Below are positions 1-29,594 of a stretch of 32,000 nucleotides of DNA, in pieces (within the stretch, counting starts at the first letter, position 1; each line of letters opens with the position of its first letter). Source of the stretch: Candidatus Iainarchaeum sp. GTDB taxonomy: Archaea; Iainarchaeota; Iainarchaeia; Iainarchaeales; CSSED10-239. The DNA lies in the NCBI GenBank assembly GCA_037441475.1, contig JBBISB010000002.1, positions 60,001 through 92,000 on the forward strand, written 5' to 3'. A program made the position numbers and the translations under genes. Under the pieces are notes generated by a model, which was given only the letters and a program-made list of their open reading frames with translations, was not told the origin of the DNA and did no database searches.

Positions 1-1615
<1,615 letters not shown>

Positions 1616-1820
1616 AAATTTAAGAATCATTTTTATTAACCAAATAAACTTGCTTTTTGTTATTATTAGGCATTATTTCCTACTTCTTTCATTCCGTTAA
1701 ATTTAGAAAGTATTAAACGGTCAAACTCACTTGGAAAAAACTCCTAGTGGGTAATATAATCTTTAGAAGAGGTAAGTTTTTAAAGGAATCGTTTTCTTCC
1801 TTAGAGATTCTTAGAAATTG

Positions 1821-5070: not shown

Positions 5071-5766
5071 CTATTTTTTAGATTTTTTCTTAGCAGCGTT
5101 CTTTATATCCAACTGCTTATCAGCTTCAGAAACATTTAATTCTTTTTTAACAACAATTCTTCCAGTCTTTATAAAGTCCTTTATACTAGCAATACCGTAT
5201 CTTGTTATTATAAAAGAACCAGTGAAGAAAACACCGGCAAGCAAAGGATTAAAGCCTAGAAGTAAAGAGGCTACCCCACTTGAAGTTGCAACCTGGATAT
5301 CTGGTTTTGAAAATAATTCACCTAATTTTTCAAAGAAACGTATGTTCTTTCCTGTCTCAGGATTAATCTCAGCCATTAAATTTCCATTTTGGAAAATTCT
5401 TATCTGTCCATCCTCTTCAGAAGAGATGATTGCCATAACATCTTTTTCTTGAGATATACCTCTTGCTGCAGAATGTCTTGTTCCATGACCAAAAAGTATC
5501 TTTGTTCTTTTTATTTTAGCACCATAACAAACAACCTTACCATCATCATTAACTATTATAGCACCATCCATTTCTGAGAGGTATAAAAGTAAAGTTTGTG
5601 TTTCTTTATCTTTGATATTAAAGTCCTTGCCTTTAAAAAGATCAGGGTAAAGAATATCGTATTTTTTAGAAATATCATTTTTAGTTATTACAAAAAAAGA
5701 ACCTTTCTTTTTTTTTGCCATTTCATTTACTAGTATCATTACTTGAGAAATTGTGTTTTTATTCAT
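5071..5766 (-). CDS. Diadenylate cyclase (DAC/DisA_N) domain protein with a C-terminal hydrophobic segment
   Basis: DGA motif (EMDGAIIVNDDG) and an RHR-region motif written as GTRHSAARGIS. The C-terminal part carries a hydrophobic stretch (VASLLLGFNPLLAGVFFTGSFII) and a Lys-rich tail. Confidence 0.8.
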   Translation of the reverse strand: MNKNTISQVMILVNEMAKKKKGSFFVITKNDISKKYDILYPDLFKGKDFNIKDKETQTLLLYLSEMDGAIIVNDDGKVVCYGAKIKRTKILFGHGTRHSAARGISQEKDVMAIISSEEDGQIRIFQNGNLMAEINPETGKNIRFFEKLGELFSKPDIQVATSSGVASLLLGFNPLLAGVFFTGSFIITRYGIASIKDFIKTGRIVVKKELNVSEADKQLDIKNAAKKKSKK

Positions 5767-5822: not shown

Positions 5823-7223
5823 CTAATTTTTTAAAATAGACTTAAGTAATAAGGAGAACTTTTTTTTATTTTTTTTAACAAATAAAACCTCTCCATCTTC
5901 TTTCTTAAGAGTTACTTTCTTTGATCTTACAATCTTTATCTTATCTCCGTTCTTTAAGATATGCCCTTTATTAGCTATTATCTTATCATTGACCTCAGCA
6001 TAGTCATAAAATTTAGCAAAATCAGTGTGAAGAATAAAAGCAAAGTCAAGAAGAGTGGATTTTTTTGGAATAACCATCTCTTGGTTTGTTTGGGTGTAGA
6101 CAACTATGTAGTCTATATAGGAGACATCTTTTGGTTTTGTAAGCATATTATTTTCTTTTAAGAAATTTATTAAACGAGAGTCCTTTTCTGAAAATTCAAT
6201 GTTTTTATAGTGGAAATGAGCAGAAACACCAAACTCAGCATTGTTATGCATATCAATGGTTCTTATCTGTATCTCAAAAGGATAACCATTAAGCATTATA
6301 TTAAGATGTATTGACTGATAACCATTTTCCTTAGGATACTTTATAAAATCTCTTATCTTTACATCCTTGTTTTCAATAACCTCAAAGTTATCTTTAATAG
6401 CTTGAAGAGCTTTATAACATTCCTTTCTTGAATTGTAGATAAGTCTTAAAGCATAGATATCAAGAACCTCTAAAAGATGATTCTTTTCTTTCCTTATAAA
6501 GATCTTTTGATAAAGACTGCCTGGGCTTTTGTATCTGTAATTGTAGGTTACTGGTTTATGTCCTTTATTTTTTAAAAAATTAATAACAGTTTCTTTTAAA
6601 GTATTTAATTTTTCTACAGGATATTTTTTAGTTACTTCTTTATAGGTTTTATTAAAACTTTCTTTATACTTTAAAGCCATTAATTTTTCTAAAAACTCCT
6701 CTTTGAAGTTTTGCATACCTAACTGGTAGGCTAAAGGAAAGATAGCTTGTTCAATAACATCTAAAAATCTTGTTTTAAATTTTTCATCTTTAATTTTAGG
6801 AAAATAATCTAAGATAACTAAAGCTTCACCAAAAAGAAGAATAACAGCCTCTATCTTAAAGAAAGATTGAACAATCATTTTTTTTATTTTCTTAGGAGGG
6901 ATATCATAGTTGTGTATTAAATCATAAAAGTTTATAAAATAATAATCTTTAGATATCTTTCTTATAATCTTAGGAAAACCTGCACTCTTAATGTTTATTT
7001 CATATTTATAAGGGTTGTAAAGAACAGCAGTGATTATTATGTTTTCATCATAAACATTTAGTTTTTTTGCAATAGCTAAAGAATACTCTATTAAAGGGAT
7101 GTTTTTGAAAACATACTCAGAAGAATAATTGTTTTTAGAGATAGAGTAGGCTTTCTTAATATTTGAAGTGTACTCTTTTATAAGAGATGAATATTCTTTT
7201 AAAAAACTTTTTTTAATAACCAT
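5823..7223 (-). CDS. Long RelA/SpoT homologue: degenerate HD region, (p)ppGpp synthetase domain and TGS
   Basis: Synthetase core YRYKSPGSLYQKI...DIYALRLIY...FIKYPKENGYQSIHLNIML..PFEIQIRTIDMHNNAEFGVSAHFHYK. C-terminal TGS-like segment STLLDFAFILHTDFAK...LKNGDKIKIV. The N-terminal region aligns to the HD hydrolase region (PLAYQLGM), but the HD dyad position reads LYNP. Confidence 0.85.
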   Translation of the reverse strand: MVIKKSFLKEYSSLIKEYTSNIKKAYSISKNNYSSEYVFKNIPLIEYSLAIAKKLNVYDENIIITAVLYNPYKYEINIKSAGFPKIIRKISKDYYFINFYDLIHNYDIPPKKIKKMIVQSFFKIEAVILLFGEALVILDYFPKIKDEKFKTRFLDVIEQAIFPLAYQLGMQNFKEEFLEKLMALKYKESFNKTYKEVTKKYPVEKLNTLKETVINFLKNKGHKPVTYNYRYKSPGSLYQKIFIRKEKNHLLEVLDIYALRLIYNSRKECYKALQAIKDNFEVIENKDVKIRDFIKYPKENGYQSIHLNIMLNGYPFEIQIRTIDMHNNAEFGVSAHFHYKNIEFSEKDSRLINFLKENNMLTKPKDVSYIDYIVVYTQTNQEMVIPKKSTLLDFAFILHTDFAKFYDYAEVNDKIIANKGHILKNGDKIKIVRSKKVTLKKEDGEVLFVKKNKKKFSLLLKSILKN

Positions 7224-10278: not shown

Positions 10279-11094
10279 CTACTTAACTCTTTCAACAAAA
10301 AGATAAACATCAGGAAGATCAGGGGTTCTTTTCTTATACTCTAAAGGAAGATATGAAAAATCTGCTCTAAAACCTCTTTTTTCAAGACCACTAATAACTT
10401 GTGATCTATGCTCTTTACCCATACTTGTCTTTAATAGAAAAGTATTGAAACTAAAGATAGCAAGACCACCTTTGTTTAAGGAATAAAGATACTTAAGTAA
10501 AACCTCTCTTTGTAAAGAGGTCTGTGTGTAATGAAAACCACCATAAACAGAAAGAATTAAATCATATTTTCTTTCTGGCATGAAATTTAAGACATTACCT
10601 ATTTTCTTAAAATCAATATTTTTTGCAACCACACTTCTAGTTAAAGAAACTGCTGTTGTTTTTAGATCAGCAGAAACTAATTTTCTTTCTTTTAAAGAAT
10701 TCCATTTTTCTTTAAGTTCTGATAAAAAAGTGCCTTTTCCAGCACCATCATCTAAAACATTTATTTCTTTTTTTTTATATTTTCTTTCAAAAGCACTTAA
10801 AGTAGATATAATATCTCTTTTAAAAACAGAGCTATTTTCTAATATACTACTGGTTATTATTTTTTTAAAAATAAAATTATAATCATCATATTTTCTATTT
10901 AAGATGTATCTTCCAGACTTATCACTTTCTTTTAATTTCTTTTCAGAAACTTTTAATCTTGCTAGAATATCTTTATCTTTTAGTTTTTTAAAAATTAGAT
11001 CTTTTTGTAAAGACACCATACCATTTGCTTTTTCTTTAAGAGAAACCGGTTTCTTTGAAAATTTAGTTAATTTAGAAGGAGTTTTTTTAACCAT
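10279..11094 (-). CDS. Class I SAM-dependent methyltransferase-like protein, tandem paralogue 2
   Basis: Motif I-like VLDDGAGKG, post-I/IV-like YDLILSVYGG and LNKGGLAIF, plus a basic N-terminal extension. It clearly aligns with the upstream paralogue. The substrate is unknown. Confidence 0.6.
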   Translation of the reverse strand: MVKKTPSKLTKFSKKPVSLKEKANGMVSLQKDLIFKKLKDKDILARLKVSEKKLKESDKSGRYILNRKYDDYNFIFKKIITSSILENSSVFKRDIISTLSAFERKYKKKEINVLDDGAGKGTFLSELKEKWNSLKERKLVSADLKTTAVSLTRSVVAKNIDFKKIGNVLNFMPERKYDLILSVYGGFHYTQTSLQREVLLKYLYSLNKGGLAIFSFNTFLLKTSMGKEHRSQVISGLEKRGFRADFSYLPLEYKKRTPDLPDVYLFVERVK

Positions 11095-11872
11095 CTAAGA
11101 ATAACTTTACCCTCTCAATAACCAAATAATTACTAGGCAGTTTTTCAAAAATATTTTTTTTTATACTCATTAAATCTGCTTTAAAACCTCTTTTTTCAAA
11201 AGCATTCTGAATAGATGTTATCTTTGGAGGAAGAGTATATTCAATACCAAAGATTCCCACACCACCTTTGTTTAAAGCATAACAATATTTAAGTAAAACT
11301 TCTTTTTGTAATTCTGGAATAGTATACTCAAAACCACCAAAAACAGAAATAATCAGATCATATTTTTTTGTAGGCAAAAAATTAGCGACATTTCCTCTTT
11401 TTATTTCATCAATATTTTTTGAAATAATTGTTTTTGAACTTAATGTAACTGCAGTAGTTTTTAAAGAAGCCTTAACTTTTCCTTCTTTTTTTAGTGCATT
11501 CCATTTTTCTTTAAGTTCAGCTAAAAAATAACCTTTTCCTGCACCATCATCTAATAAACTTATTTTCTTCTTTTTGTGCCTATATGCCATTACTCTTAAA
11601 GTATGTACTACATCTCTTTTTAAAATTTTATGAGAAGAAAATAATCTATTAAAAATAGTATTATAACTTGCATAATTTCTATCAAGAACATACCCTGAAG
11701 TCCTGTTCTTTGAACGATTATAAGCTTCTTGCTCAAAATAAGAATATCTTATTTTATCTTGTTTTAATTTTTTTTTAATAAGTTCTTTTTGTAAAGCAAC
11801 CATGCCGTTTGGTTTTTCTTTAGATGAATTTACGTTAAAAAAATTACTTACTTTAGAAAATAATTTTTTCAT
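11087..11872 (-). CDS. Class I SAM-dependent methyltransferase-like protein, tandem paralogue 1
   Basis: LLDDGAGKG, YDLIISVFGG and LNKGGVGIF. It shares NGMV.LQK.L and LKTTAV.L blocks with 10279..11094. Its stop overlaps the next gene's start by 8 nt. Confidence 0.6.
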   Translation of the reverse strand: MKKLFSKVSNFFNVNSSKEKPNGMVALQKELIKKKLKQDKIRYSYFEQEAYNRSKNRTSGYVLDRNYASYNTIFNRLFSSHKILKRDVVHTLRVMAYRHKKKKISLLDDGAGKGYFLAELKEKWNALKKEGKVKASLKTTAVTLSSKTIISKNIDEIKRGNVANFLPTKKYDLIISVFGGFEYTIPELQKEVLLKYCYALNKGGVGIFGIEYTLPPKITSIQNAFEKRGFKADLMSIKKNIFEKLPSNYLVIERVKLFLDG

Positions 11873-11898: not shown

Positions 11899-12681
11899 TT
11901 ATTCTCCACCAAATATATTTGCCATAGCATCATAGCTTGCTCTAAACCTTGAATAAAGTTCATTAAAGTTATTTAGCATAGTTGCATTCAATCTTCCTTC
12001 AATACCAGAAACAGAATCGTTTAAAGAAATATTAAAATCTTGAACTTCTTGATTTAAGTTATATATTTCAGTCATAACATTGTTATCAATGTATGTTTGG
12101 ATACCATAAACCCTCATGTCAACAGAATTAATCTGTGCCCTTACATTTGCATCCAAGGCATTTATCTTAGCAACTAAATCATCATACTGTGCTCTCTGTG
12201 ATTGAGACATTTCAACAATTAAGTTAAGACCAGGAGAAACATGGAAGGAATAAGAGATGTTTAAGGTTCTTGGAGTATTGTTTCTTACAACAGTACATCT
12301 TATATGCTCTTCATATATACCAGGAGTTTGAGGGGTTATAAAGGCATGATAGTAGTTACCAGGAATTGTGGTTGGAATCATTGGAACATCTATTAAAAAG
12401 AAAGACTTATCAGGGAAAAGAAGAGAAAGAATACAGTTTGCATCTGTAATAGGCACACTTCTTGAATCTTCTAAACGAACAATTACTTGTCCTTGCTCAC
12501 CAGAGATATACTCTGTTCCAGATACCATTCTAATACCAGGTTCTGCAGTTTTTTCTCTTATAAAGAATATTAAAAAAATAATTAAGCCAATAACTAATAA
12601 AGCTATGACTATGTAAAGGATAGTTCTTTTATTTAAACTAGAAAATGAACTAAAATTATGATGTCTGAAACCTTTTTCCAT
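11899..12681 (-). CDS. N-anchored surface protein, short paralogue of the 746-aa repeat protein
   Basis: TM segment ILYIVIALLVIGLIIFLIFFI. The following globular module aligns with the large protein (VIVRLED..C...L.FPDK..F....PM.P..I.GN.Y....G.YE...C....S.SFH..P.L). An N/Q/L-rich helical tail follows. Confidence 0.6.
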   Translation of the reverse strand: MEKGFRHHNFSSFSSLNKRTILYIVIALLVIGLIIFLIFFIREKTAEPGIRMVSGTEYISGEQGQVIVRLEDSRSVPITDANCILSLLFPDKSFFLIDVPMIPTTIPGNYYHAFITPQTPGIYEEHIRCTVVRNNTPRTLNISYSFHVSPGLNLIVEMSQSQRAQYDDLVAKINALDANVRAQINSVDMRVYGIQTYIDNNVMTEIYNLNQEVQDFNISLNDSVSGIEGRLNATMLNNFNELYSRFRASYDAMANIFGGE

Positions 12682-12699: not shown

Positions 12700-12746
12700 T
12701 TTTTTATAAAAAAATAAAAGAAAGCTTCTTTCTTTTAAAGAAAGAA
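12700..12746 (-). terminator. Hairpin plus T-run between the two surface-protein paralogues
   Basis: A 7-bp stem (12726-12732 ttctttc with 12740-12746 gaaagaa) encloses a 7-nt loop. On the minus strand it is followed by gctttcttttattttttt. It may act as a partial terminator or attenuator. Confidence 0.25.
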
Positions 12747-12771
12747 ACTTGTTATAACATTTTTAAAAAAT

Positions 12772-15012
12772 CTAAGAAATTATTCTTATATGTATTTCAG
12801 ATTCTTGATTTTCTAAAATCTTGTGAACAGTTGCATTGATGTCTGTTGTTTGTGCTTTAATGATACCAATATCTGTTAAAAGAGAATCAATCTTTGTTGT
12901 TATATCTCCACTTAAAAGATTCCATGTGTTAAGTGTAGTTTGATTAATTTCTTCTATCTTTTGTGCATGTGTTGTATCCATAATAGCTACTGCTGTCTTA
13001 ATGTTGTATACTTCTTGACATAATGGGCTATTATTTGTATCTTGATTTCCACAAAAGTTTTCAACTAATGCAAGGTTGTTATCAACAGATGTAAATCTAT
13101 TTCTGATCTCTTGCATGTCTTCTTGGTTAATTGCATTTGAAACAAGCCATGTGGTGTCTGCTTTAACAGCATCTAACTGTGAAGTTAAGTTAGCTAAAAG
13201 TTCATCCATTTGAACATCTATGTTTCCAATAACTAAACTTGTAATTAAGTTAGATAATGACTCATTAACATCTGTTATCTGTGTTTGGATAGTTTGACCT
13301 GTTGAAACTATTGTTCCGTTTACAGAAACCTCTAAGTTATTAAGTCTTGAAGCTAAAAACTCATTTGAATCCATGAAGCTTTGTGCAATCAATGCATTTG
13401 TGTTATTAAATTGATTTGTAATCTCACTTGCTAAATTAACATTAACAGTGTTTAAAAGATTTGTTAAAGAGGTTGTAGAGGTATTGATTTTTGTATTAAT
13501 TGATTCTCCAGTCTCTGTAACTGTTGCTGTTAATGATAAACTAACATTTGTAAGTTGAGATGAAAGTTCAGCAAATTTCAAATCTATTTTGGTTGAAAGA
13601 TCATTGTTAACTGTGTTTAAAAGATTTGTTAAAGAGGTGGTGGAAGCAGTGATGTTTGTATTAATCTCTTCTCCTGTCTCTTCTAATTTAGCATTTAAAT
13701 TAAGTTCTAAGTTTGTTAAAACACCAAATAACTCTTCAAACTTAAGATCTATTTTACTTGAAAGATCATTGTTAACTGTGTTTAAAAGATTTGTTAAAGA
13801 GGTAGTAGAAGAAGTGATGTTTGTATTAATCTCTTCTCCTGTTTCTTCAAGTTTAGCATTTAAACTTATATTAACATTTGATAAGTTTGTTTGAGAGGTG
13901 TTAAAGTCAGATGCAAGTTGACTTAATAAATCAGCATTAACTGTATTTAAAAGGTTTGTTAAGTTTGTTGTAGAGGTTGTAATATTTGTATTTATTGTCT
14001 CTCCAGTAGAAATAACAGTACCTGTTAAGTTAAGGCTTACATCATTTAAGTTTGCTGAAACTGCATTGAAATCTGTTTGAAGTTGATCTAAGATACTAGC
14101 ATTTACAGAACCTAAAAGATTTGTTAAGTTTGTGTTTGTGTTTGTTATATTTGTATTAATTGTTTCTCCTGTTGTTAAAACAGTAGCTGTTAAGTTTAAA
14201 CTTACATCATTTAAATTTGCATTTAAAGAATTAAAGTCAGTTGATAATTGATTTAAAAGACCGTTATTAATGTTTGTTAAAAGACCAGATAAGTTTGTAT
14301 TAACATTTGTTAAACTTGTCTGTATTGCTTCTCCAGTTGCTGCAACTGTTCCTGTAACAGAAACATTAACATTTGTTAAGTCTGTCTGAAGTGTTGAAAC
14401 ACCTTCTTGTAATTGAGAAGAAAGTCTTCCATTAACATCGTTTAATAAATCGTTTAAAGAAGTATTCATGTTTGTTATATTTGTTGTAATTGTCTCACCA
14501 GTAGATGCAAGTTGACCTGTAACTGTAACATTAACATCTGCAAGTTTTAAGTCTAAGTTATCAGACTTGTTTGTTAAAACACTTATTTGTTCAAGTGCTG
14601 GATTTAAGTGGAAGGATTGTGAACTTTTAACCTCATTTGCCCCTCTTTTACAAGTTACTTCTTGTTCATAAGTTCCAAGAGGGGCTGATCCTAAATAATC
14701 TGTTCTATACCAGTTACCTGCTATGTTAGAAGGTGCCATTGGCTGGTTGTTTACAAAAACAGTTTTGTCTGGGTAAAGAATTGTTACTTTACATTCATCT
14801 ATAGGGTATGGATTTCCCTTATAATCAGATAATCTTACAATAGTTGAACCATAATCATCTCTCCAGTATTCAGTGTGGGATACCCAAGAGAAGATTATTT
14901 CATTATCAACAACTGTTTTTCCATTAACATACGCTGTTGCTAAAAAAGCAATACCTATGAGAAGAATTCCTAGGACTGCTAATAATATTTTTGATTTTTT
15001 ATTTTTTAACAT
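12772..15012 (-). CDS. Large N-anchored, Asn/Thr/Leu-rich repeat (fibre-like) surface protein, no recognised family
   Basis: 746 aa. N-terminal anchor KILLAVLGILLIGIAFLA, a ~110-aa globular module, seven 55-aa tandem units plus one divergent unit, and a C-terminal region with a CGNQDTNNSPLC pair. I count about 27 N-X-S/T sequons. Confidence 0.7.
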   Translation of the reverse strand: MLKNKKSKILLAVLGILLIGIAFLATAYVNGKTVVDNEIIFSWVSHTEYWRDDYGSTIVRLSDYKGNPYPIDECKVTILYPDKTVFVNNQPMAPSNIAGNWYRTDYLGSAPLGTYEQEVTCKRGANEVKSSQSFHLNPALEQISVLTNKSDNLDLKLADVNVTVTGQLASTGETITTNITNMNTSLNDLLNDVNGRLSSQLQEGVSTLQTDLTNVNVSVTGTVAATGEAIQTSLTNVNTNLSGLLTNINNGLLNQLSTDFNSLNANLNDVSLNLTATVLTTGETINTNITNTNTNLTNLLGSVNASILDQLQTDFNAVSANLNDVSLNLTGTVISTGETINTNITTSTTNLTNLLNTVNADLLSQLASDFNTSQTNLSNVNISLNAKLEETGEEINTNITSSTTSLTNLLNTVNNDLSSKIDLKFEELFGVLTNLELNLNAKLEETGEEINTNITASTTSLTNLLNTVNNDLSTKIDLKFAELSSQLTNVSLSLTATVTETGESINTKINTSTTSLTNLLNTVNVNLASEITNQFNNTNALIAQSFMDSNEFLASRLNNLEVSVNGTIVSTGQTIQTQITDVNESLSNLITSLVIGNIDVQMDELLANLTSQLDAVKADTTWLVSNAINQEDMQEIRNRFTSVDNNLALVENFCGNQDTNNSPLCQEVYNIKTAVAIMDTTHAQKIEEINQTTLNTWNLLSGDITTKIDSLLTDIGIIKAQTTDINATVHKILENQESEIHIRIIS
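13390..14544 (-). repeat. Seven in-frame tandem 165-nt (55-codon) coding repeats inside the 746-aa ORF
   Basis: The T-G-E landmark recurs at residues 171, 226, 281, 336, 391, 446 and 501, an exact 55-aa spacing. Two adjacent units (~13590-13920) are nearly identical at DNA level, which the duplicated antisense ORF text ERSLLTVFKRFVKEVVE also shows. Boundaries are approximate. Confidence 0.85.
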
Positions 15013-17034: not shown

Positions 17035-17745
17035 ATGATAGACAAACCAATAGTTGAACTTAAAAACGTCTCTAAGATATACAAGATGGGACTTGTTGAA
17101 GTAAAGGCAATAAACGATGTTTCCTTAAAAATATTTCCAAAAGAATTTGTTGCAATCATGGGAGCGTCTGGTTCTGGAAAATCAACAATGATGCATTTAA
17201 TTGGTGCACTTGATCTTCCTACAAAAGGAGAGCTTTCTATTCATAAGCATAAACTTTTAAGCTTTACAGAAGATGAACTTGCATCCTTAAGAGGAAAAAC
17301 CATTAGTTTTGTTTTTCAAGACTTTCATTTAATACCTACCCTTACAGCTTTTGAAAATGTTAGACTTCCTATACTCTTCCAAACAAACGAAGATGATGAA
17401 GAAACATACAACAGAAGATGTGAAGAACTTTTAGATGTTGTTGGTTTAAAAGATAGAATGGACCATAGGCCAGCTGAACTTTCAGGTGGTCAACAACAAA
17501 GAGTTGCAATTGCAAGAGCACTTGCAAATGATCCTGAAATTATTTTAGGAGATGAACCTACAGGAGCCCTTGACTCTAAGTCCTCTGCTGAGATTATTCA
17601 ACTTTTAAAAAAACTAAATAAATCTGGAAAAACAATAATCATTATTACACATGATATTAATGTTGCAAAAAATGCAAAAAGAATAATTACTTTAAAAGAT
17701 GGAAAAATAATTGAAGATAAAATAAACAAACAAGAAAACCCTTAA
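17035..17745 (+). CDS. ABC transporter ATP-binding protein, MacB/LolD-type
   Basis: Walker A GASGSGKST, signature LSGGQQQRVAIARAL, Walker B ILGDEPTGALD, H-loop ITHD. Confidence 0.92.
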   Translation: MIDKPIVELKNVSKIYKMGLVEVKAINDVSLKIFPKEFVAIMGASGSGKSTMMHLIGALDLPTKGELSIHKHKLLSFTEDELASLRGKTISFVFQDFHLIPTLTAFENVRLPILFQTNEDDEETYNRRCEELLDVVGLKDRMDHRPAELSGGQQQRVAIARALANDPEIILGDEPTGALDSKSSAEIIQLLKKLNKSGKTIIIITHDINVAKNAKRIITLKDGKIIEDKINKQENP

Positions 17746-17757
17746 GAAAAAGAAAAC

Positions 17758-18948
17758 ATGAAAAAACTAATTCCCTTTGTTATCTCAAACCTTAAAAGAA
17801 GGAAACTTAGAAGTTACTTAACAATCATAGGTATAATCGTAGGAGTTGTTGCTATCGTCTCTTTAATATCTTTGTCTGAAGGTCTTAAGAGTGGAGTTAG
17901 TCAAGAGTTTTCAAAAACAGGGGCACAGAAAATAACAGTTTCTTCAAAGTATGCACAAACCATACAAGGCTCCTCCTTTCCATTAACTGAAGATGAGGTT
18001 AAAGAGATTGAAAAACTGCCCTCCATTAACTTTGCAACCGGTTACCTTAATACCAGGGCCTCTATTGAGTTTAATAGAAGTAAAAAATTTGCAAGTGTTA
18101 GTGCATATGAAACAGATGTCTATAAAGAGATACTACTTCAAGAAGGAAAAGAAATATTTAGAGGAAAAATAATCACAGATGACAAGGCAAAAGAAATTGT
18201 TATTGGTTATGATTTGTTTAACAGTGATGAATTTTTTGGAAAAACAGTTAAGCTCGGAGATACAGTTGAAATATCAAACCAGAAATTTAAGGTGGTTGGA
18301 GTATTAAACGACTCTGGAAATAAGAATGCTGATAGAGCAATCTATATGTCAATGGATAACCTTAGAGAGATATCAAATATCAAAGATAAGGAAGTTGATG
18401 TTATTTATGCTGTTATTAAAGAAAATGCAGATATTGAAAAAACAGGGCTTGATATTGAAGCAAGACTTGAAAAATTTAGAAAAGTTGAAGACTTTGTTGT
18501 AACTACACCTGTTAAGGAAGCAGAGAGTAGAGAAGAAACATTAAAAGCAGTTTCAATTGTTGTGGTTGGAATTGCATCAATCTCTCTTTTGGTTGGAGGT
18601 ATTGGGATACTTAACTCCATGTACACCTCTGTTCTTGAAAGAAGAAGAGAGATTGGGATTATGAAGGCTATTGGTGCTAGAAGAGAGGATATCTTAAAAA
18701 TATTCTTAATTGAAGCAGGAATAATTGGTTTGATTGGTGGTATTATTGGCACCATAGGTGGTTTTTTAATAGCTTTTATAGTAAATACCATAGGAAAGTT
18801 TACAGGAACAGAAATATCAGCTTCCTTTGATCCAACCATTGTTTTAATTGCTCTTAGCTTTTCATTCTTGTTAGGCCTTTTAGCTGGTTTTCTTCCAGCA
18901 TACCAAGCATCTAAACAACAAGCAATTGATTCTTTAAGAGAGGAATAA
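17758..18948 (+). CDS. ABC transporter permease, FtsX/MacB-type
   Basis: An N-terminal TM, a large extracytoplasmic domain and three C-terminal TMs. Conserved LERRREIGIMKAIGARREDI segment. Confidence 0.85.
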   Translation: MKKLIPFVISNLKRRKLRSYLTIIGIIVGVVAIVSLISLSEGLKSGVSQEFSKTGAQKITVSSKYAQTIQGSSFPLTEDEVKEIEKLPSINFATGYLNTRASIEFNRSKKFASVSAYETDVYKEILLQEGKEIFRGKIITDDKAKEIVIGYDLFNSDEFFGKTVKLGDTVEISNQKFKVVGVLNDSGNKNADRAIYMSMDNLREISNIKDKEVDVIYAVIKENADIEKTGLDIEARLEKFRKVEDFVVTTPVKEAESREETLKAVSIVVVGIASISLLVGGIGILNSMYTSVLERRREIGIMKAIGARREDILKIFLIEAGIIGLIGGIIGTIGGFLIAFIVNTIGKFTGTEISASFDPTIVLIALSFSFLLGLLAGFLPAYQASKQQAIDSLREE

Positions 18949-18983
18949 AAAAAAATTATAATTTTAAAAGAAAAGGTGAAAAT

Positions 18984-19100
18984 ATGAACTTAAACAAAAT
19001 AATAATAGTTATTGCATTGTTAATGGTTATGATAATACCAGTTAATGCTGCAACAACAAACTATGACATCATAAACTTAAATGCAGATAGATACATATAA
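18984..19100 (+). pseudogene. 38-codon signal-peptide ORF, probably the detached 5' end of the 19081..20229 gene
   Basis: GGTGA (18975-18979) lies 4 nt before the ATG. The ORF reads MNLNKIIIVIALLMVMIIPVNAATTNYDIINLNADRYI*, a classic signal peptide. It overlaps the next ORF by 20 nt in a different frame. Confidence 0.55.
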
Positions 19101-20229
19101 CTACAACCCAACACCTGTAATCTCAGGAGAGGAGTTTGAGATATGGATACAACTTACAAACAAAAGTAATGTTGCTGCTGATAATATAGAATATTTTTTA
19201 GAAACAGCATACCCTTTCATTTTAATATCTGAAAATGAAGGGAAGATTTCAAAGCTTGAGGGCTTTCAATCAAAGATAATAAAATACAAATTAAAAACAA
19301 ACAACGATGTTTTAACAGGAACATACGATCTTGAGTTTAGGTATAAAAGAGAGGGTATTAGTATTTACAATATTAAAAAATACACTATAGACATTAAAGG
19401 TAAATCAGCTATACTTGAGATTGTTTCATCTAATGTCTTAGAAGCAAGTATTGGAGATGATTCAACTGTTCTTTTAAACCTTAAAAACTTAGGACAAAAA
19501 GACTCTAAGGATATCTTCATAACACTCGGAGACTCTGCAGACCAAACAATTAAGGTTATTGGTCTTAAGACACAATATCTTGAGAGAATAAATATTGGAC
19601 AAGAAACAAACGTTTCATTCATGATTAGTGTTTCAAAAAACGTTACTGAAACAAGCTACACTCTTCCAATAACTATTGAATATTCAGATATTGATAGAGA
19701 TTATAAGGTTACAAGAAACATAGGAATAAAGCTTAATGATCAGCCAAAAATGATTTTAAGTGTTATTGGTGTTGGAGATGACTTTAAAATAAAACCAAAC
19801 AGTAAAGAAACAATCACAATTGAGATTTACAATGTTGGTAATGTTGATACTGAGATATCATATGTAACTATTGAAGGAAGCGGTATTAACTCAACAAAGG
19901 ACTTTATAGGTTCTATTGAAAGAGATAATTACGATAAGATAGATGTTGTTTTAAACACTAAAGACATTAAAGAAAAAGAAACAGAAATTACTGTTACTCT
20001 TTTCTATAAGGACAACAACCTTAAGGAACAAAAGATAACACAAACAGTTAGTGTACAAACAGATTTTTCTGCAAATGGAAAGAATGCAAATAAAGCTGTA
20101 ATGTCTGTTCTTGGTATACTTGGTTTTATCTTAGGCCTTGCAGTATTTATTCTTCTTGCAAGATGGCTTATTAAGATATTAATAAAACCTGCATACCATG
20201 CTGTTGTTGGAATATTTAAGAGAAAATAA
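19081..20229 (+). CDS. Beta-sandwich repeat surface protein (COG1361/CARDB-like) with a C-terminal TM anchor
   Basis: Three repeats of the pattern ...V.PG/SGEEF.I.I.L.N.G... (for example PTPVISGEEFEIWIQLTNKS, DSTVLLNLKNLGQKD, KETITIEIYNVGNVD). C-terminal TM VMSVLGILGFILGLAVFILLA. As written it has no signal peptide, and a TAA sits immediately upstream of its ATG. Confidence 0.6.
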   Translation: MQIDTYNYNPTPVISGEEFEIWIQLTNKSNVAADNIEYFLETAYPFILISENEGKISKLEGFQSKIIKYKLKTNNDVLTGTYDLEFRYKREGISIYNIKKYTIDIKGKSAILEIVSSNVLEASIGDDSTVLLNLKNLGQKDSKDIFITLGDSADQTIKVIGLKTQYLERINIGQETNVSFMISVSKNVTETSYTLPITIEYSDIDRDYKVTRNIGIKLNDQPKMILSVIGVGDDFKIKPNSKETITIEIYNVGNVDTEISYVTIEGSGINSTKDFIGSIERDNYDKIDVVLNTKDIKEKETEITVTLFYKDNNLKEQKITQTVSVQTDFSANGKNANKAVMSVLGILGFILGLAVFILLARWLIKILIKPAYHAVVGIFKRK

Positions 20230-20285
20230 ATTTTTTATTTTCTTTTTTTTTATTTTATAAAAAATATAAAAATAATAATTTACAC

Positions 20286-21506
20286 ATGAACACAGAAAAA
20301 TACAAGCACCTTATAGATTTAACATTTAAAAATATTCTAAGAAGACTTAGATCAATTTTAACAATCATAGCTGTAGTGATTGGAATTGCAACCATTGTTG
20401 CCTTGTTTTTAATAAGTGATGGACTACTTAACTATGTTGAAGATGTTTTTATGACAATGGGGATAAACACTATTTTCATTTTTCCAGTAAGCTTTCAAGG
20501 TGGGGCAAACCAAACTATTAGTAGGGTTTCTGAGGATATTAAGATAACGCAAAGTGATCTCCGGCTTATTGAAAAAATACCTGAAATAGATTATGCAATT
20601 GGTTTTTCTTTCAGAACAGCAAAGTATGAGTATAAGGGGGAAGAGAGTTATCAGTTTGTGATAATGGTTGACCCTAAGCTTGCAGATAAAACCTTTGAAA
20701 TAATGGATATAGGGGTAAGGGAAGGAAAGAGCCTTCAAGGAAGAGAAGGGGCAGAAATTGTTGTTGGTTCATACTTTGCAGATAAACTTTTTAAAGAACC
20801 TATTAAGGTTGGACAAAAAATAAAAATTCAAGATAAAGAGTTTAAGGTAATTGGTATTTTAGAACCTGTTGAAAATATGCAAGATGACTCTCAAGCGTAT
20901 ATAACCATGAACAGTGGAAGAGAACTTTTTGATACTGGAGAAACCTTAGATCAGATTTATGCAAGTGTAAAGCCTGAGTATGATCCTTTAGTTGTTCAAA
21001 AAGAGATTGAAAAAAGACTTGAAAAGAAACATGGTAAAAATAAATTTTTTATAATAACAGCAAAACAAGTTTTAACAATGATAAAAACTGTATTAGGTCT
21101 TTTACAAACCATTTTAGTCTCAATCGGGCTTATATCCATTGTTGTTGGAAGTATTGGTATCATGAACTCAATATATACATCAGTTATTGAGAGGACAAGG
21201 GAGATTGGTATCTTAAAATCATTAGGGGCTAAAAAAGAAGATATTTATTTTATATTTACCTTTGAGTCTTTAGTGTTATCTTTAATTGGTGGAATCATTG
21301 GTTTGGGGCTTGGTATTGGAATTGCTAAGTTTGTGGAGTATTATGCAGCAAGCCAAGCCTTTATTACCCTTAATATAATAGTAACATGGCAAGTTGTGGC
21401 TCTTGCTTTAGGAGTATCCATTATTGTTGGAATTGCAGCTGGACTTTTACCTTCAAAATCAGCAGCAAAGATGAATGTCGTGGATGCTTTAAGAAAAACT
21501 ATTTAA
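20286..21506 (+). CDS. ABC transporter permease, FtsX/MacB-type (second copy)
   Basis: Same architecture as 17758..18948. Conserved IERTREIGILKSLGAKKEDI segment. Confidence 0.85.
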   Translation: MNTEKYKHLIDLTFKNILRRLRSILTIIAVVIGIATIVALFLISDGLLNYVEDVFMTMGINTIFIFPVSFQGGANQTISRVSEDIKITQSDLRLIEKIPEIDYAIGFSFRTAKYEYKGEESYQFVIMVDPKLADKTFEIMDIGVREGKSLQGREGAEIVVGSYFADKLFKEPIKVGQKIKIQDKEFKVIGILEPVENMQDDSQAYITMNSGRELFDTGETLDQIYASVKPEYDPLVVQKEIEKRLEKKHGKNKFFIITAKQVLTMIKTVLGLLQTILVSIGLISIVVGSIGIMNSIYTSVIERTREIGILKSLGAKKEDIYFIFTFESLVLSLIGGIIGLGLGIGIAKFVEYYAASQAFITLNIIVTWQVVALALGVSIIVGIAAGLLPSKSAAKMNVVDALRKTI

Positions 21507-28466: not shown

Positions 28467-29594
28467 TTATATCTTTTTATTATAAAGCTTGTTTAGGTAA
28501 GCAATAATTTTTTTAGATTTATTTGCATCTATTCCTGGAACCTTTGAAAGATCTGCAAAGTTAAGGTTCTTTACATTATTAATTGACTTATGGGTCTTTA
28601 TTAAGCTTTCAATAGACTTTTCATCAATATCGTTTATTTTAGAAAGGATCCTATAACCTCTTGGAAAATCATTTGTTTTTCCGTTTACAAAGTTTGATAT
28701 TTCTAAAATCTCAATTAACTTGTCAGTATCAGCTATTCTTCTTATACCTAGTTGCTTTAATAAAGAGATTTTTTCAAAAGAAGCCTCTCTTGTTATTATA
28801 TTGTTTGAATAATCTCTTAAGATGAAAGATAGTTCCTCATCAATACCGTATGTTACTTCATATAAAGTGTTTGAAATATCTTGACCTTGAGACCCAAGCT
28901 CAACTACCAAGTCATTCACTTGTTTTTCATGTTTTATAAAGTAAAGGATGTTTTGAATAACATCTAAAATTTCTATCTTAAGGTTAGGGGTGTTGTTTAT
29001 CTCATAGGAAAGAATATTTCTAAGTTTCTTATCAAGCTTTGTTCTAAAGTCCTTTAGGTTGTTTATAGCATAACTTGCTTTAACCATTAGGATGCTAAAG
29101 TCCTGTAAAACATATTTTTGGTCCTTATAGTAAAGAGAAATAACACTTCTTCTATGGGAGATGGCTATTACTGGAACATTTGATTGTTTTGCTGTTTGTT
29201 CAGCTGACCTATGCCTCATTCCTGTTTCCTTTGAAGAGATTTCTTTGTCTGGCATTAAATGTTTGTTTGCACCTATTATTTTTGTTAAGTCTTTGGAAAG
29301 GACAATGGCACCATCCATTTTTGAGAGTTCAAAGAGCTTTTGAGAGGAGAAAGGGATATCAAGGTCTATTCCTCCTTTAAGGATAGGTTTTAGTTCCTCT
29401 GAGTTGCCTAGGACTATTAGGGCACCTAGGTTACCATGTAAAATCTCATCTAGGCCTTGTCTTAGTTCTGTTCCTGGTGTAACAAGCGGCAGGATCCTTG
29501 TAATATCTATGACTTCATTTTTATATATTTCATTTAAGAGTTTTGAAGAGAAGTCATCTTCTACAAATATTCTTTTTTTTGGTTTTGTAGGCAT
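28467..29594 (-). CDS. disA: DNA integrity scanning protein DisA (diadenylate cyclase with a C-terminal HhH domain)
   Basis: N-terminal DAC domain (GALIVLG, KMDGAIVLS, GMRHRSAEQ), a helical linker and a C-terminal helix-hairpin-helix-like segment DLSKVPGIDANKSKKIIAYL. The 375-aa size is typical of DisA. Confidence 0.88.
   Translation of the reverse strand: MPTKPKKRIFVEDDFSSKLLNEIYKNEVIDITRILPLVTPGTELRQGLDEILHGNLGALIVLGNSEELKPILKGGIDLDIPFSSQKLFELSKMDGAIVLSKDLTKIIGANKHLMPDKEISSKETGMRHRSAEQTAKQSNVPVIAISHRRSVISLYYKDQKYVLQDFSILMVKASYAINNLKDFRTKLDKKLRNILSYEINNTPNLKIEILDVIQNILYFIKHEKQVNDLVVELGSQGQDISNTLYEVTYGIDEELSFILRDYSNNIITREASFEKISLLKQLGIRRIADTDKLIEILEISNFVNGKTNDFPRGYRILSKINDIDEKSIESLIKTHKSINNVKNLNFADLSKVPGIDANKSKKIIAYLNKLYNKKI

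What the first reader, a model, noticed from the sequence alone, without database searches (positions are those of the whole stretch)
12772..15012. Fibre-like surface protein with seven exactly 55-residue tandem units, dense in N-X-S/T sequons, no recognisable family
The 746-aa ORF has an N-terminal membrane anchor and a ~110-aa globular module. A T-G-E landmark then recurs at residues 171, 226, 281, 336, 391, 446 and 501, an exact 55-aa (165-nt) period, with one divergent unit at 571. Two neighbouring units (~13590-13920) are almost identical at DNA level, which points to recent expansion or concerted evolution. I count about 27 N-X-S/T sequons, mostly within the repeats. That would fit a heavily N-glycosylated rod, because archaea glycosylate this sequon. 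The strict unit length and regular hydrophobic spacing suggest a long, length-tunable stalk projecting from the cell. In a reduced, probably episymbiotic archaeon this is a candidate host-contact or cell-cell bridging structure. I cannot assign it to any described adhesin, S-layer or pilin family.
Basis: partly seen in the sequence, partly recalled or inferred. Interest (0 to 1): 0.72.

Follow-up and report, generated by a model that had tools for sequence, protein, structure and literature searches.

The report
Variable-length archaeal surface stalk protein
This gene encodes a so far unnamed surface protein of tiny symbiotic-type (DPANN) archaea: two conserved end domains joined by eight copies of a 55-residue unit, whose copy number runs from 0 to 10 among relatives, so it probably acts as an adjustable spacer on the cell surface; its real job is untested.

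Summary
The ORF (12772-15012, minus strand, 746 aa) and its repeat are real. It has 7 units in exact 55-aa register plus an eighth after a 15-aa insert. Two details do not hold:
- The "almost identical" unit pair is 80% identical at DNA level.
- The 27 sequons are what the N/T/S-rich composition predicts (23.5±4).

No curated family or solved structure matches. The protein does belong to an unnamed family of more than 100 proteins from Iainarchaeia, Woese-, Pace- and Aenigmarchaeota MAGs.

Architecture:
- an N-terminal hydrophobic segment
- a highly conserved Ig-like β-sandwich with a Cys pair
- the repeat units
- a conserved 128-aa helical C-domain with a Cys-Cys loop

A short paralog (same N-terminal part, ~108-aa tail) lies directly downstream in nearly all loci.

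Each unit most likely forms a β-hairpin plus a ~32-residue amphipathic helix. The family-wide residue pattern and two low-confidence AlphaFold models agree on this. A continuous coiled coil is less likely. Unit number is mostly 0, 2, 4, 6, 8 or 10, with one 9-unit variant.

Best reading: a variable-length extracytoplasmic spacer. Glycosylation, rod shape and host contact remain untested.

The parts
12772..15012 (-). Whole ORF, 746 aa plus stop codon: the long member of a conserved long/short gene pair
   Evidence: ORF list. It has 42 close homologs of 410-643 aa. Family anchoring with N- and C-domain HMMs.
14932..14988 (-). Hydrophobic segment, residues 9-27 (ILLAVLGILLIGIAFLATA), preceded by MLKNKKSK. 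It is either a signal-anchor or a cleavable Sec signal peptide. A conserved [AV]-x-A|Y motif follows it.
   Evidence: Read from the sequence. AlphaFold predicts a helix at 2-37. Y28 is nearly invariant and G31 invariant. Alignment columns are shown. Cleavage could not be tested.
14593..14901 (-). Ig-like β-sandwich, residues 38-140. Motifs: WVSHTEYW, GNWYRTD, GTYEQEVTC, SQSFHLNPAL. Invariant C74 and C121.
   Evidence: AlphaFold pLDDT 85-95. Foldseek finds only generic filamin, macroglobulin-MG and S-layer Ig-like domains, with TM 0.6-0.68 normalised to the target and E about 1e-4. About 29 columns are invariant.
14533..14592 (-). Linker, residues 141-160, predicted helical
   Evidence: AlphaFold helix 138-154. 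The layout is conserved in relatives.
13378..14532 (-). Seven 55-aa units in exact register, residues 161-545. Each unit: β-strand (h-x-h-x-G/A-x-h), T-G turn, β-strand, then a ~32-residue L-rich amphipathic helix.
   Evidence: Family-wide unit profile from 305 units. AlphaFold predicts hairpin plus helix for each unit at low confidence.
13333..13377 (-). 15-aa insert (FMDSNEFLASRLNNL), residues 546-560, specific to this clade
13159..13332 (-). Eighth, divergent unit, residues 561-618, with T-G-Q at 571
   Evidence: Unit HMM hit at 561-616, E 4e-18
12775..13158 (-). Conserved C-terminal α-helical domain, residues 619-746. It begins DTTWLVSNA, carries a C654-C665 loop, and ends in the conserved ...IxIIS.
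   Evidence: Invariant W622, F640, C654, T659, S662, C665. AlphaFold helices 633-653, 663-701 and 703-738, pLDDT 65-84. No PDB match.
12722..12750 (-). Terminator-like hairpin (13-bp stem) with a T-rich tail, between the long and short genes
   Evidence: Consensus scan. RNA fold -15.5 kcal/mol, z = -3.55.
11899..12681 (-). Short paralog, 260 aa: a hydrophobic anchor, the same Ig-like domain, and a ~108-aa tail with ~3.65-residue hydrophobic periodicity. It lacks the C-terminal domain.
   Evidence: BLASTP to the long protein, E 1.6e-22. It lies directly downstream of the long gene in nearly all loci. Tail periodicity. Weak unit similarity.

Best explanation
The ORF encodes the long subunit of a two-gene surface module found in DPANN archaea.

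The protein is exported with its N-terminus in or at the membrane. A highly conserved Ig-like β-sandwich sits next to the membrane. Eight tandem 55-residue units follow. A conserved 128-residue helical domain with a disulfide-closed loop ends the chain.

Each unit most likely folds as an amphipathic β-hairpin with a T-G turn, followed by a ~32-residue amphipathic helix.

Both end domains are conserved while the number of units changes by gain or loss of single 55-aa units or 110-aa double units. The repeat region therefore most likely works as a spacer. It would set how far the C-terminal domain is held from the membrane-proximal Ig-like domain.

The short paralog encoded immediately downstream has a clear membrane anchor, the same Ig-like domain and a short unit-like tail. 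It probably pairs with the long protein at its base.

Shown: the domain anatomy, the family, the gene pair and the copy-number variation. Inferred: the export topology, the ββα unit fold, the spacer role and the long/short pairing.
For: - The repeat is real and regular.
- Topology cues: a basic N-terminus followed by a 19-residue hydrophobic segment, and two invariant Cys pairs.
- The Ig-like domain is modelled with confidence (pLDDT 85-95). It matches only generic Ig/filamin/MG/S-layer Ig folds.
- Family size: 42 close homologs. About 116 proteins carry both end domains among the session's sequences, and 54 more come from metagenome contigs. Source taxa are Ca. Forterrea, Iainarchaeum, Woese-, Pace-, Aenigmarchaeota and Nanoarchaeia MAGs.
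- Stalk length between the conserved anchors clusters at ~30, 132, 242-249, 355-368, 466-478, 533 and 588 aa, which is 0 to 10 units.
- Among the closest relatives (86-96% identity in the end domains) the unit count is 6, 8, 9 or 10. The differences lie in two hot-spot unit types.
- Unit fold: in 305 units, positions 55, 2, 4, 6 (G/A) and 8 alternate hydrophobic and polar and are V/I-rich. Positions 11-12 are T-G. Positions 15, 17 and 19 read I-T-I. Positions 26 to 52 are L-rich with ~3.6-residue spacing. Two independent AlphaFold runs place a hairpin plus a helix in every unit.
- The short paralog lies directly downstream in almost every locus examined.
Against: - The repeat region has pLDDT below 50-60 in both models, and no oligomer could be modelled. 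The 3-D arrangement could be a rod, beads on a string or a compact solenoid, and it is unknown.
- No expression, proteomic or imaging data exist for any family member.
- Whether the N-terminal segment is an anchor or a cleaved signal peptide is unresolved.
- The long and short genes are separated by a terminator-like hairpin, so co-expression is not assured.
- Distant subfamilies show stalk lengths that are not clearly quantised.
- The spacer role is an inference from conservation patterns, not from any functional signal.
Confidence: 0.5

Rival explanations
1. Host-contact adhesin or cell-cell bridge. The stalk projects the C-terminal domain to reach and bind the host cell. Its length is tuned to the thickness of the host envelope.
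For: - The lineage is DPANN.
- The protein is surface-exposed, and its length varies quickly between near-identical relatives at 6, 8, 9 or 10 units. Bacterial adhesin stalks vary in the same way.
- The family was found only in DPANN-labelled MAGs.
Against: - The C-terminal domain and especially the Ig-like domain are conserved across several DPANN phyla whose hosts must differ. Host-binding tips usually diversify.
- No adhesin, lectin or toxin domain was detected.
- Some members have 0-2 units and would barely project.
- Nothing links the gene to contact sites.
Confidence: 0.2
2. Continuous right-handed (hendecad, 11-residue) α-helical coiled-coil fibre in the manner of tetrabrachion. The whole 478-residue stretch would be one long oligomeric helix bundle about 70 nm long.
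For: - Hydrophobic periodicity over residues 146-620 shows a single peak at 3.67 (11/3). Its power is 13.8, against a shuffle mean of 0.2 and maximum of 1.8. Nothing appears at 3.5.
- Two positions per 11 are hydrophobic in 33/35 and 35/35 hendecads.
- Profile matches to the all-helical 11/22-mer apolipoproteins: Pfam 69 bits, and PDB 9hx4_F at E 1.7e-14.
- Distant homologs lack the turn glycine and are Ala-rich.
Against: - The family-wide unit profile has conserved hydrophobic residues at i, i+2, i+4 and i+8 (positions 55, 2, 4, 8), with G/A at position 6. That is a β-strand pattern, and one 94%-conserved hydrophobic residue would fall on the wrong face of a helix.
- V/I/T enrichment and a T-G turn occur in the first 22 positions, against an L-rich remainder.
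- AlphaFold puts hairpins there in both runs.
- The 3.67 peak is explained by the helical two-thirds of each unit together with 55 = 15 × 3.667.
- The PDB sequence searches listed no tetrabrachion chain.
Confidence: 0.15
3. Antiparallel fold-back stalk. The first half of the repeats pairs with the second half, within one chain or between two chains. Length can then only change by one unit on each arm, and the C-domain returns to the Ig-like domain.
For: - In the window's clade the two expanding unit types occur as (1,1), (2,2) and (3,3) copies. The boundary between them is the exact midpoint of the stalk: 185/368, 240/478 and 295/588.
- Even unit numbers dominate the family.
Against: - A (3,2) variant with 9 units exists in two independent metagenome contigs, 96% identical to the (3,3) protein in the end domains.
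- P0013 has about 5 units.
- Even numbers are also explained by tandem duplication of a 110-aa X-Y double unit, which is seen directly in other clades.
- No loop or phase break occurs at the proposed apex.
Confidence: 0.1
4. Apolipoprotein-like lipid-binding protein. The 11-residue-periodic amphipathic helices would bind or shuttle lipids, which DPANN archaea cannot make.
For: The only sequence-level matches are to apolipoproteins A-I, A-IV and E, apolipophorin-III and LEA-type 11-mer repeat families.
Against: - The Pfam score of 69 bits is below the curated cut-off of 90.
- The same profile also hits heterogeneous 11-mer repeat giants from unrelated proteins, so the match reflects periodicity and not homology.
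- The hydrophobic stripe is narrow (about 30% LIVMF) and the polar face is N/T/S-rich with only 4.6% K+R. It lacks the K/R-E pattern of class A lipid-binding helices (plus general knowledge).
- Each unit also carries a β-hairpin signature.
Confidence: 0.05

Closest known systems
Bacterial surface proteins with conserved ends and variable tandem stalk repeats (e.g. trimeric autotransporter adhesins such as YadA/BadA, SasG, Rib-domain proteins). Comparison from general knowledge.
   Same: Conserved terminal domains are joined by tandem repeats. Copy number differs between close relatives and so changes the reach of the distal domain.
   Different: There is no sequence or fold match. The protein is archaeal, with an N-terminal anchor or signal and no β-barrel or LPXTG anchor. 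The unit is a 55-aa predicted hairpin plus helix, not a known stalk domain.
Archaeal S-layer stalk or anchor proteins: tetrabrachion (Staphylothermus marinus) and SlaB (Sulfolobales). Comparison from general knowledge.
   Same: All are archaeal, extracytoplasmic, membrane-tethered and N/T/S-rich with many sequons. All have an elongated region with ~11/3 hydrophobic periodicity. SlaB also works within a two-gene module.
   Different: Tetrabrachion and SlaB are anchored at the C-terminus and have continuous coiled coils. Here the hydrophobic segment is N-terminal and each unit carries a β-strand signature. The PDB sequence searches listed no tetrabrachion or SlaB chain. No canopy-type partner is encoded nearby.
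Apolipoprotein A1/A4/E domain (Pfam PF01442) and related 11-mer repeat families (ApoLp-III, LEA)
   Same: Shared 11-residue-periodic amphipathic helices. These are the best profile hits (69 bits in Pfam; PDB 9hx4_F at E 1.7e-14).
   Different: The score is below Pfam's gathering threshold (90 bits). There are no Pro-punctuated 22-mers. Composition differs. There are extra β-hairpin segments, an Ig-like domain and an export signal. The resemblance is analogy of periodicity, not membership.
Archaellum FlaF/FlaG (ArlF/ArlG) pair. Comparison from general knowledge.
   Same: Two adjacent paralogous genes, each encoding an N-terminal hydrophobic helix plus an extracytoplasmic β-sandwich. In one subclade the pair sits just upstream of a T2SSE-type ATPase and two membrane proteins.
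   Different: No Pfam hit to archaellum families. FlaF and FlaG are not among the Foldseek hits listed. The ATPase neighbourhood occurs in only 10 of 95 loci. FlaF and FlaG have no 55-aa repeats and no C-terminal helical domain.

Membership tests
Apolipoprotein A1/A4/E (PF01442) | Profile score at or above Pfam's gathering cut-off (90 bits) | tested here: not met
   69.3 bits for the window protein. Homologs score 36-58 bits.
Apolipoprotein A1/A4/E (PF01442) | Tandem 22-mer (2×11) amphipathic helices, typically punctuated by Pro, all-α | tested here: not met
   The period is 55 aa. Pro makes up 1.1% of the protein and is near zero in units. Unit positions 55-22 show a β-strand pattern.
Baculo_PEP_C (PF04513) | Profile score at or above the gathering cut-off (38 bits) | tested here: not met
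   36.5 bits for the window protein. One homolog, P0033, reaches 39.1 bits. The match lies in the repeat region only.
Hendecad (right-handed) coiled-coil stalks, tetrabrachion type | Uninterrupted 11-residue hydrophobic repeat compatible with one continuous helix | tested here: inconclusive
   There is a strong 3.67 periodicity with unbroken phase. However, each unit has an i/i+2 alternating V/I segment and a T-G turn, and AlphaFold predicts hairpins.
Hendecad (right-handed) coiled-coil stalks, tetrabrachion type | Oligomeric parallel helix bundle | not testable with these tools
   Only monomer prediction was available
Trimeric autotransporter adhesins | C-terminal β-barrel translocator/anchor in an outer membrane | tested here: not met
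   The C-terminal 128 aa are predicted helical. No YadA-type Pfam hit. The host is archaeal.
Archaeal type IV pilins / archaellins | Class III signal peptide with cleavage before the hydrophobic stretch, after a short basic leader ending in G/A/S | tested here: not met
   The leader MLKNKKSK runs directly into ILLAV with no G/A at -1. No pilin or archaellin Pfam hit. Judged by eye, without a dedicated predictor.
[quoted passage not shown] | 2 or 4 TM segments, PF07760 match, neighbourhood with MoxR ATPase, vWA protein and arCOG01314 | tested here: not met
   One hydrophobic segment. No PF07760 hit. No MoxR or vWA genes in the window or in related loci.
N-glycosylated archaeal surface protein | Sequons enriched beyond composition, or conserved in position | tested here: inconclusive
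   For the window protein, 27 observed against 23.5±4 expected. Homologs mostly have z of 0-2.5 and a few reach 3-5.5. A sequon at unit position 1 occurs in 50% of 305 units. The sequon at N726 is conserved in most homologs.
N-glycosylated archaeal surface protein | Glycans actually attached | not testable with these tools
   Needs glycoproteomics
Unnamed DPANN long/short Ig-stalk family (defined here) | N-terminal Ig-like domain with the SHTEYW...GNWY...GTYEQxVxC...SFHxNPAL motifs, plus the C-terminal DTxW...FC(x10)C...IIS domain | tested here: met
   Domain HMM scores of 169 (N-terminal) and 179 (C-terminal) bits. The invariant columns include all of these motifs.
Unnamed DPANN long/short Ig-stalk family (defined here) | Short paralog encoded immediately downstream | tested here: met
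   The 260-aa paralog lies at 11899-12681 (-). The same arrangement is seen in L001-L028.

The most novel reading that the evidence does not exclude
The long/short gene pair could be a conserved, DPANN-specific envelope or contact apparatus built from a previously undescribed 55-residue β-hairpin-plus-helix repeat.

In this reading the repeats assemble, probably as an oligomer, into a stalk whose length is set by unit number. That length would be adjusted on short evolutionary time scales to the distance that has to be spanned, such as the organism's own envelope width or the gap to a host cell. There would be a preference for even unit numbers because two units form one structural module.
Probability: 0.2. 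Interest if true: 0.75.

Novelty: new variant of a known kind. Interest (0 to 1): 0.5.

Why it matters
DPANN archaea depend on contact with other cells, but the proteins that build their surface and contact sites are almost entirely unknown.

This family was found in several DPANN lineages and is always paired with a short paralog. Its end domains are strongly conserved, and its middle changes length between near-identical relatives. That makes it a concrete, testable candidate for a structural element of the DPANN envelope.

The 55-residue unit has no match among solved structures, so it may also be a new repeat fold.

If the protein turns out to be an ordinary spacer with no role in symbiosis, the finding is of modest interest.

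Tried and rejected
1. Continuous hendecad coiled coil. This was my first reading, based on the 3.67 periodicity. I downgraded it after the family-wide unit profile showed a β-strand/turn/β-strand segment in each unit, in agreement with both AlphaFold runs.

2. Antiparallel fold-back stalk, with strict lock-step growth of the two unit types. It was weakened by the 9-unit (3,2) variant L029/L030 and by the 110-aa X-Y double-unit duplications seen in other clades.

3. Sequon enrichment. Shuffles show none for this protein.

4. Curated families. Pfam, NCBIfam and PHROGs give only sub-threshold repeat-driven hits: Apolipoprotein, Baculo_PEP_C, the ZorA tail and phrog_9415.

5. Solved structures.
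- The profile of the whole family hits only apolipoproteins.
- The profile of a single unit hits nothing (best E 0.15).
- Foldseek against PDB and BFVD returns only generic Ig-like hits.

6. Viral origin. No relatives were found in IMG/VR.

7. Literature.
- No paper was found on this family.
- The predicted arCOG01314/arCOG02884 secretion system does not fit.
- A link to the DPANN cluster cls.004306 (NEQ255; PMC6393860) could not be tested, because I had no sequence for it.

8. Functional linkage to neighbours. The T2SSE ATPase cluster occurs in only 10 of 95 loci. The methyltransferase, ABC transporter and LeuRS neighbours are limited to the Iainarchaeia-like clade.

9. Names in databases. 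Only 'hypothetical protein'.

10. The exact window protein is not on record elsewhere, so independent assemblies of this 8-unit allele could not be compared.
Full report
**The observation**

The ORF at 12772-15012 on the minus strand encodes 746 aa. T-G-E recurs at residues 171, 226, 281, 336, 391, 446 and 501, and T-G-Q at 571.
- 161-215, 216-270, 271-325, 326-380, 381-435, 436-490 and 491-545, in exact register
- 561-616, after a 15-aa insert
- each hit has E between 1e-17 and 1e-22

Tandem Repeats Finder reports 165-nt arrays over 13607-14262 at 75-77% matches.

Pairwise unit identity is 31-65% in protein. The exception is units 5 and 6, at 82% protein and 80% DNA identity. Their identity reaches 94-97% only in the central 66 nt, and the longest identical run is 46 nt. 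"Almost identical" is therefore overstated. This level of divergence also makes collapse or inflation of the array by an assembler unlikely, though reads were not available to check.

The protein has 27 N-X-S/T sequons, 23 of them in the units. Shuffling gives 23.5±4.0 for the protein and 21.3±3.6 for the unit region. The density (5 per 100 aa in the units) follows from a composition of 14% N, 14% T and 9% S.

**The organism**

The window carries the 5' half of an archaeal LSU rRNA at 1-1623 and has ~28% GC. The closest relatives of the protein and of its neighbours come from MAGs labelled Ca. Forterrea multitransposorum and Ca. Iainarchaeum. The two methyltransferase-like genes between the pair and LeuRS are shared only with those loci. 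The source is thus a Forterrea-like DPANN archaeon.

**Anatomy of the protein**

- Residues 1-8 are basic, and residues 9-27 are hydrophobic.
- A conserved [AV]-x-A|Y motif follows. It would suit signal peptidase I, so anchor versus cleaved signal peptide stays open.
- Residues 40-136 are a β-sandwich with pLDDT 85-95. Foldseek matches only generic Ig-like folds: filamin, α2-macroglobulin MG domains, and Sap and Nitrosopumilus S-layer Ig domains, with TM 0.6-0.68 normalised to the target.
- This domain is the most conserved part of the protein. About 29 columns are invariant, including SHTEYW, GNW, GxYEQxVxC, SxSFHxNxAL and the pair C74/C121.
- The last 128 residues form a conserved helical domain (pLDDT 65-84) with invariant W622, F640, C654, T659, S662 and C665 and a conserved ...IxIIS end.

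**No known family**

- Pfam gives Apolipoprotein at 69.3 bits (cut-off 90) and Baculo_PEP_C at 36.5 bits (cut-off 38).
- NCBIfam and PHROGs give only weak repeat-driven hits.
- A family profile searched against all PDB sequences hits only apolipoproteins A-IV, A-I and E in the repeat region (best E 1.7e-14). Nothing matches either end domain.
- A single-unit profile hits nothing.
- Databases call the homologs "hypothetical protein".
- I found no paper on the family.
- The predicted archaeal secretion system with Ig-like membrane proteins (PMC5898192) does not fit by domain or by neighbourhood.

**An unnamed family with a partner gene**

The first search returned 42 homologs of 410-643 aa. A full HMMER scan of 1.8 billion representatives, plus genome and metagenome scans, raised this to well over 100 proteins carrying both end domains.

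The ORF directly downstream (11899-12681, 260 aa) is a paralog. It has a hydrophobic anchor without the A-x-A motif, the same Ig-like domain, and a ~108-aa tail. The tail shows ~3.65-residue periodicity and weak unit similarity. It has no C-terminal domain.

A homologous short gene follows the long gene in almost every locus examined, from Iainarchaeia-like to Woese- and Aenigmarchaeota contigs. No other neighbour is conserved across the family. The T2SSE ATPase cluster occurs in 10 of 95 loci, and the methyltransferase, ABC transporter and LeuRS neighbours occur only in the Iainarchaeia-like clade. A terminator-like hairpin lies between the long and short genes.

**What a unit is**

My first reading was a continuous hendecad coiled coil. 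Hydrophobic periodicity over residues 146-620 peaks only at 3.67 (power 13.8, shuffle maximum 1.8), and two positions per 11 are hydrophobic in 33 and 35 of 35 hendecads.

The profile of 305 units from 70 non-redundant family members changed that view:
- Positions 55, 2, 4 and 8 are 94-100% hydrophobic and V/I-rich, with G/A at position 6. This i, i+2 alternation marks a β-strand.
- Positions 11-12 are T-G.
- Positions 15, 17 and 19 read I-T-I.
- Positions 26, 29/30, 33, 37, 41, 45, 48 and 52 are L-rich with ~3.6-residue spacing over about 32 residues.

Two separate AlphaFold runs were made, one on the window protein and one on a 410-aa relative. Both place a β-hairpin and a helix in each unit, though at pLDDT below 50-60. 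The 3.67 peak is explained by the helical two-thirds of each unit and by 55 = 15 × 3.667.

I therefore take each unit as a hairpin plus a helix. How the units pack is unknown. They could form an oligomeric stalk, 110-aa two-unit modules, or a compact solenoid.

**Length variation**

The stretch between the end of the Ig-like domain and the start of the C-domain is ~30, 132, 242-249, 355-368, 466-478, 533 or 588 aa in members with strong end-domain scores. That corresponds to 0, 2, 4, 6, 8, 9 or 10 units.

Among the closest relatives, the end domains are 86-96% identical while the unit count is 6 (P0001), 8 (window), 9 (L029/L030) or 10 (Forterrea). The differences lie in two unit types, which I call C and D.

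The C and D copy numbers (1,1), (2,2) and (3,3) suggested a fold-back stalk that must grow on both arms. The (3,2) variant, found in two independent metagenome contigs, shows this is not a strict rule. In other clades the duplicating block is a 110-111-aa X-Y double unit, which alone explains many of the even numbers. A preference for even numbers remains unexplained.

**Interpretation**

The evidence for the best reading is:
- conserved ends
- a fast-changing number of middle units
- cues for an extracytoplasmic location
- a constant short partner

Together these best fit a surface spacer. It would hold the C-terminal domain at a set distance from a membrane-proximal base, probably shared with the short paralog.

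The host-contact idea is not excluded. However, conservation of both end domains across phyla argues against a host-specific tip. Lipid binding in the manner of apolipoproteins is unlikely: the match reflects periodicity only, and the same profile also hits unrelated 11-mer repeat giants.

No viral relatives were found. Glycosylation is plausible but untested. One sequon recurs at unit position 1 in half of all units, and the sequon at N726 is conserved in most homologs.

**Verdict**

The protein is a member of an undescribed DPANN family. It appears to be a new variant of the familiar "conserved ends plus variable tandem stalk" type of surface protein. Its function and three-dimensional form remain open.

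Noticed in passing
window 11899-12681 (-): A 260-aa paralog of the finding's protein, with the same hydrophobic N-terminus and Ig-like domain and a short tail, lies directly downstream. This long/short gene pair is conserved in nearly all related loci.
   Followed up: yes
window 5823-7223 (-), 5071-5766 (-), 28467-29594 (-): Three bacterial-type nucleotide second-messenger genes sit in an archaeal window: a RelA/SpoT-domain protein with a TGS domain, a DAC (diadenylate cyclase) domain protein, and a full DisA-like protein (DAC + DisA-linker + HhH). This is unusual for archaea and worth a separate look.
   Followed up: no
window 10279-11094 (-) and 11087-11872 (-): Two tandem paralogous methyltransferase-like genes (48% identical, overlapping by 8 nt) lie between the gene pair and LeuRS. 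They occur only in the Forterrea-like loci. In another subclade the same position holds a T2SSE ATPase plus two membrane proteins.
   Followed up: partly
window 17035-21506 (+): A MacB/FtsX-type ABC transporter cluster (ATPase and two MacB_PCD+FtsX permeases) has a 382-aa CARDB-domain protein inserted between the permeases. It is transcribed on the opposite strand to the stalk gene and lies beyond the methyltransferase and MscS genes. It is syntenic in the Iainarchaeia-like clade only.
   Followed up: partly
window 13589-13894 (+): A 101-aa antisense ORF lies inside the repeat array. It is itself repetitive and is almost certainly a by-product of the repeats, not a gene.
   Followed up: no
window 12722-12750 (-): A 13-bp hairpin followed by a T-rich tail sits between the long and short genes, and an AT-rich stretch follows it before the short gene's start. 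The two genes may be transcribed separately.
   Followed up: partly
window 1-1623 (-) and 2376-2451: The 5' half of an archaeal 23S rRNA gene runs off the window edge. An (AT)n microsatellite of about 39 copies lies about 750 nt away.
   Followed up: no
loci L029/L030 vs L008/L031/L035: Proteins 96% identical in the end domains differ by exactly one 55-aa unit (809 vs 864 aa). This suggests very recent gain or loss of a unit in Forterrea-like populations.
   Followed up: yes
proteins P0184-P0195; P0062-P0106 class: Two further classes share the same Ig-like domain. One is ~150-aa proteins with only the hydrophobic segment and the Ig-like domain. The other is ~300-320-aa proteins with both end domains and almost no units. 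The domain family is broader than the long/short pair.
   Followed up: partly
proteins P0069-P0181: The repeat part of the family profile also matches giant proteins of 1,100-7,162 aa with 11-residue periodicity from unrelated sources. One of them, P0073, has a 55/110-aa super-repeat and a Glucodextran_B domain.
   Followed up: partly
homologs P0017, P0023, P0028, P0033, P0040: The precomputed Pfam annotation lists PF28217 on five homologs. That accession is newer than the Pfam copy available here, so I could not identify what it describes.
   Followed up: partly
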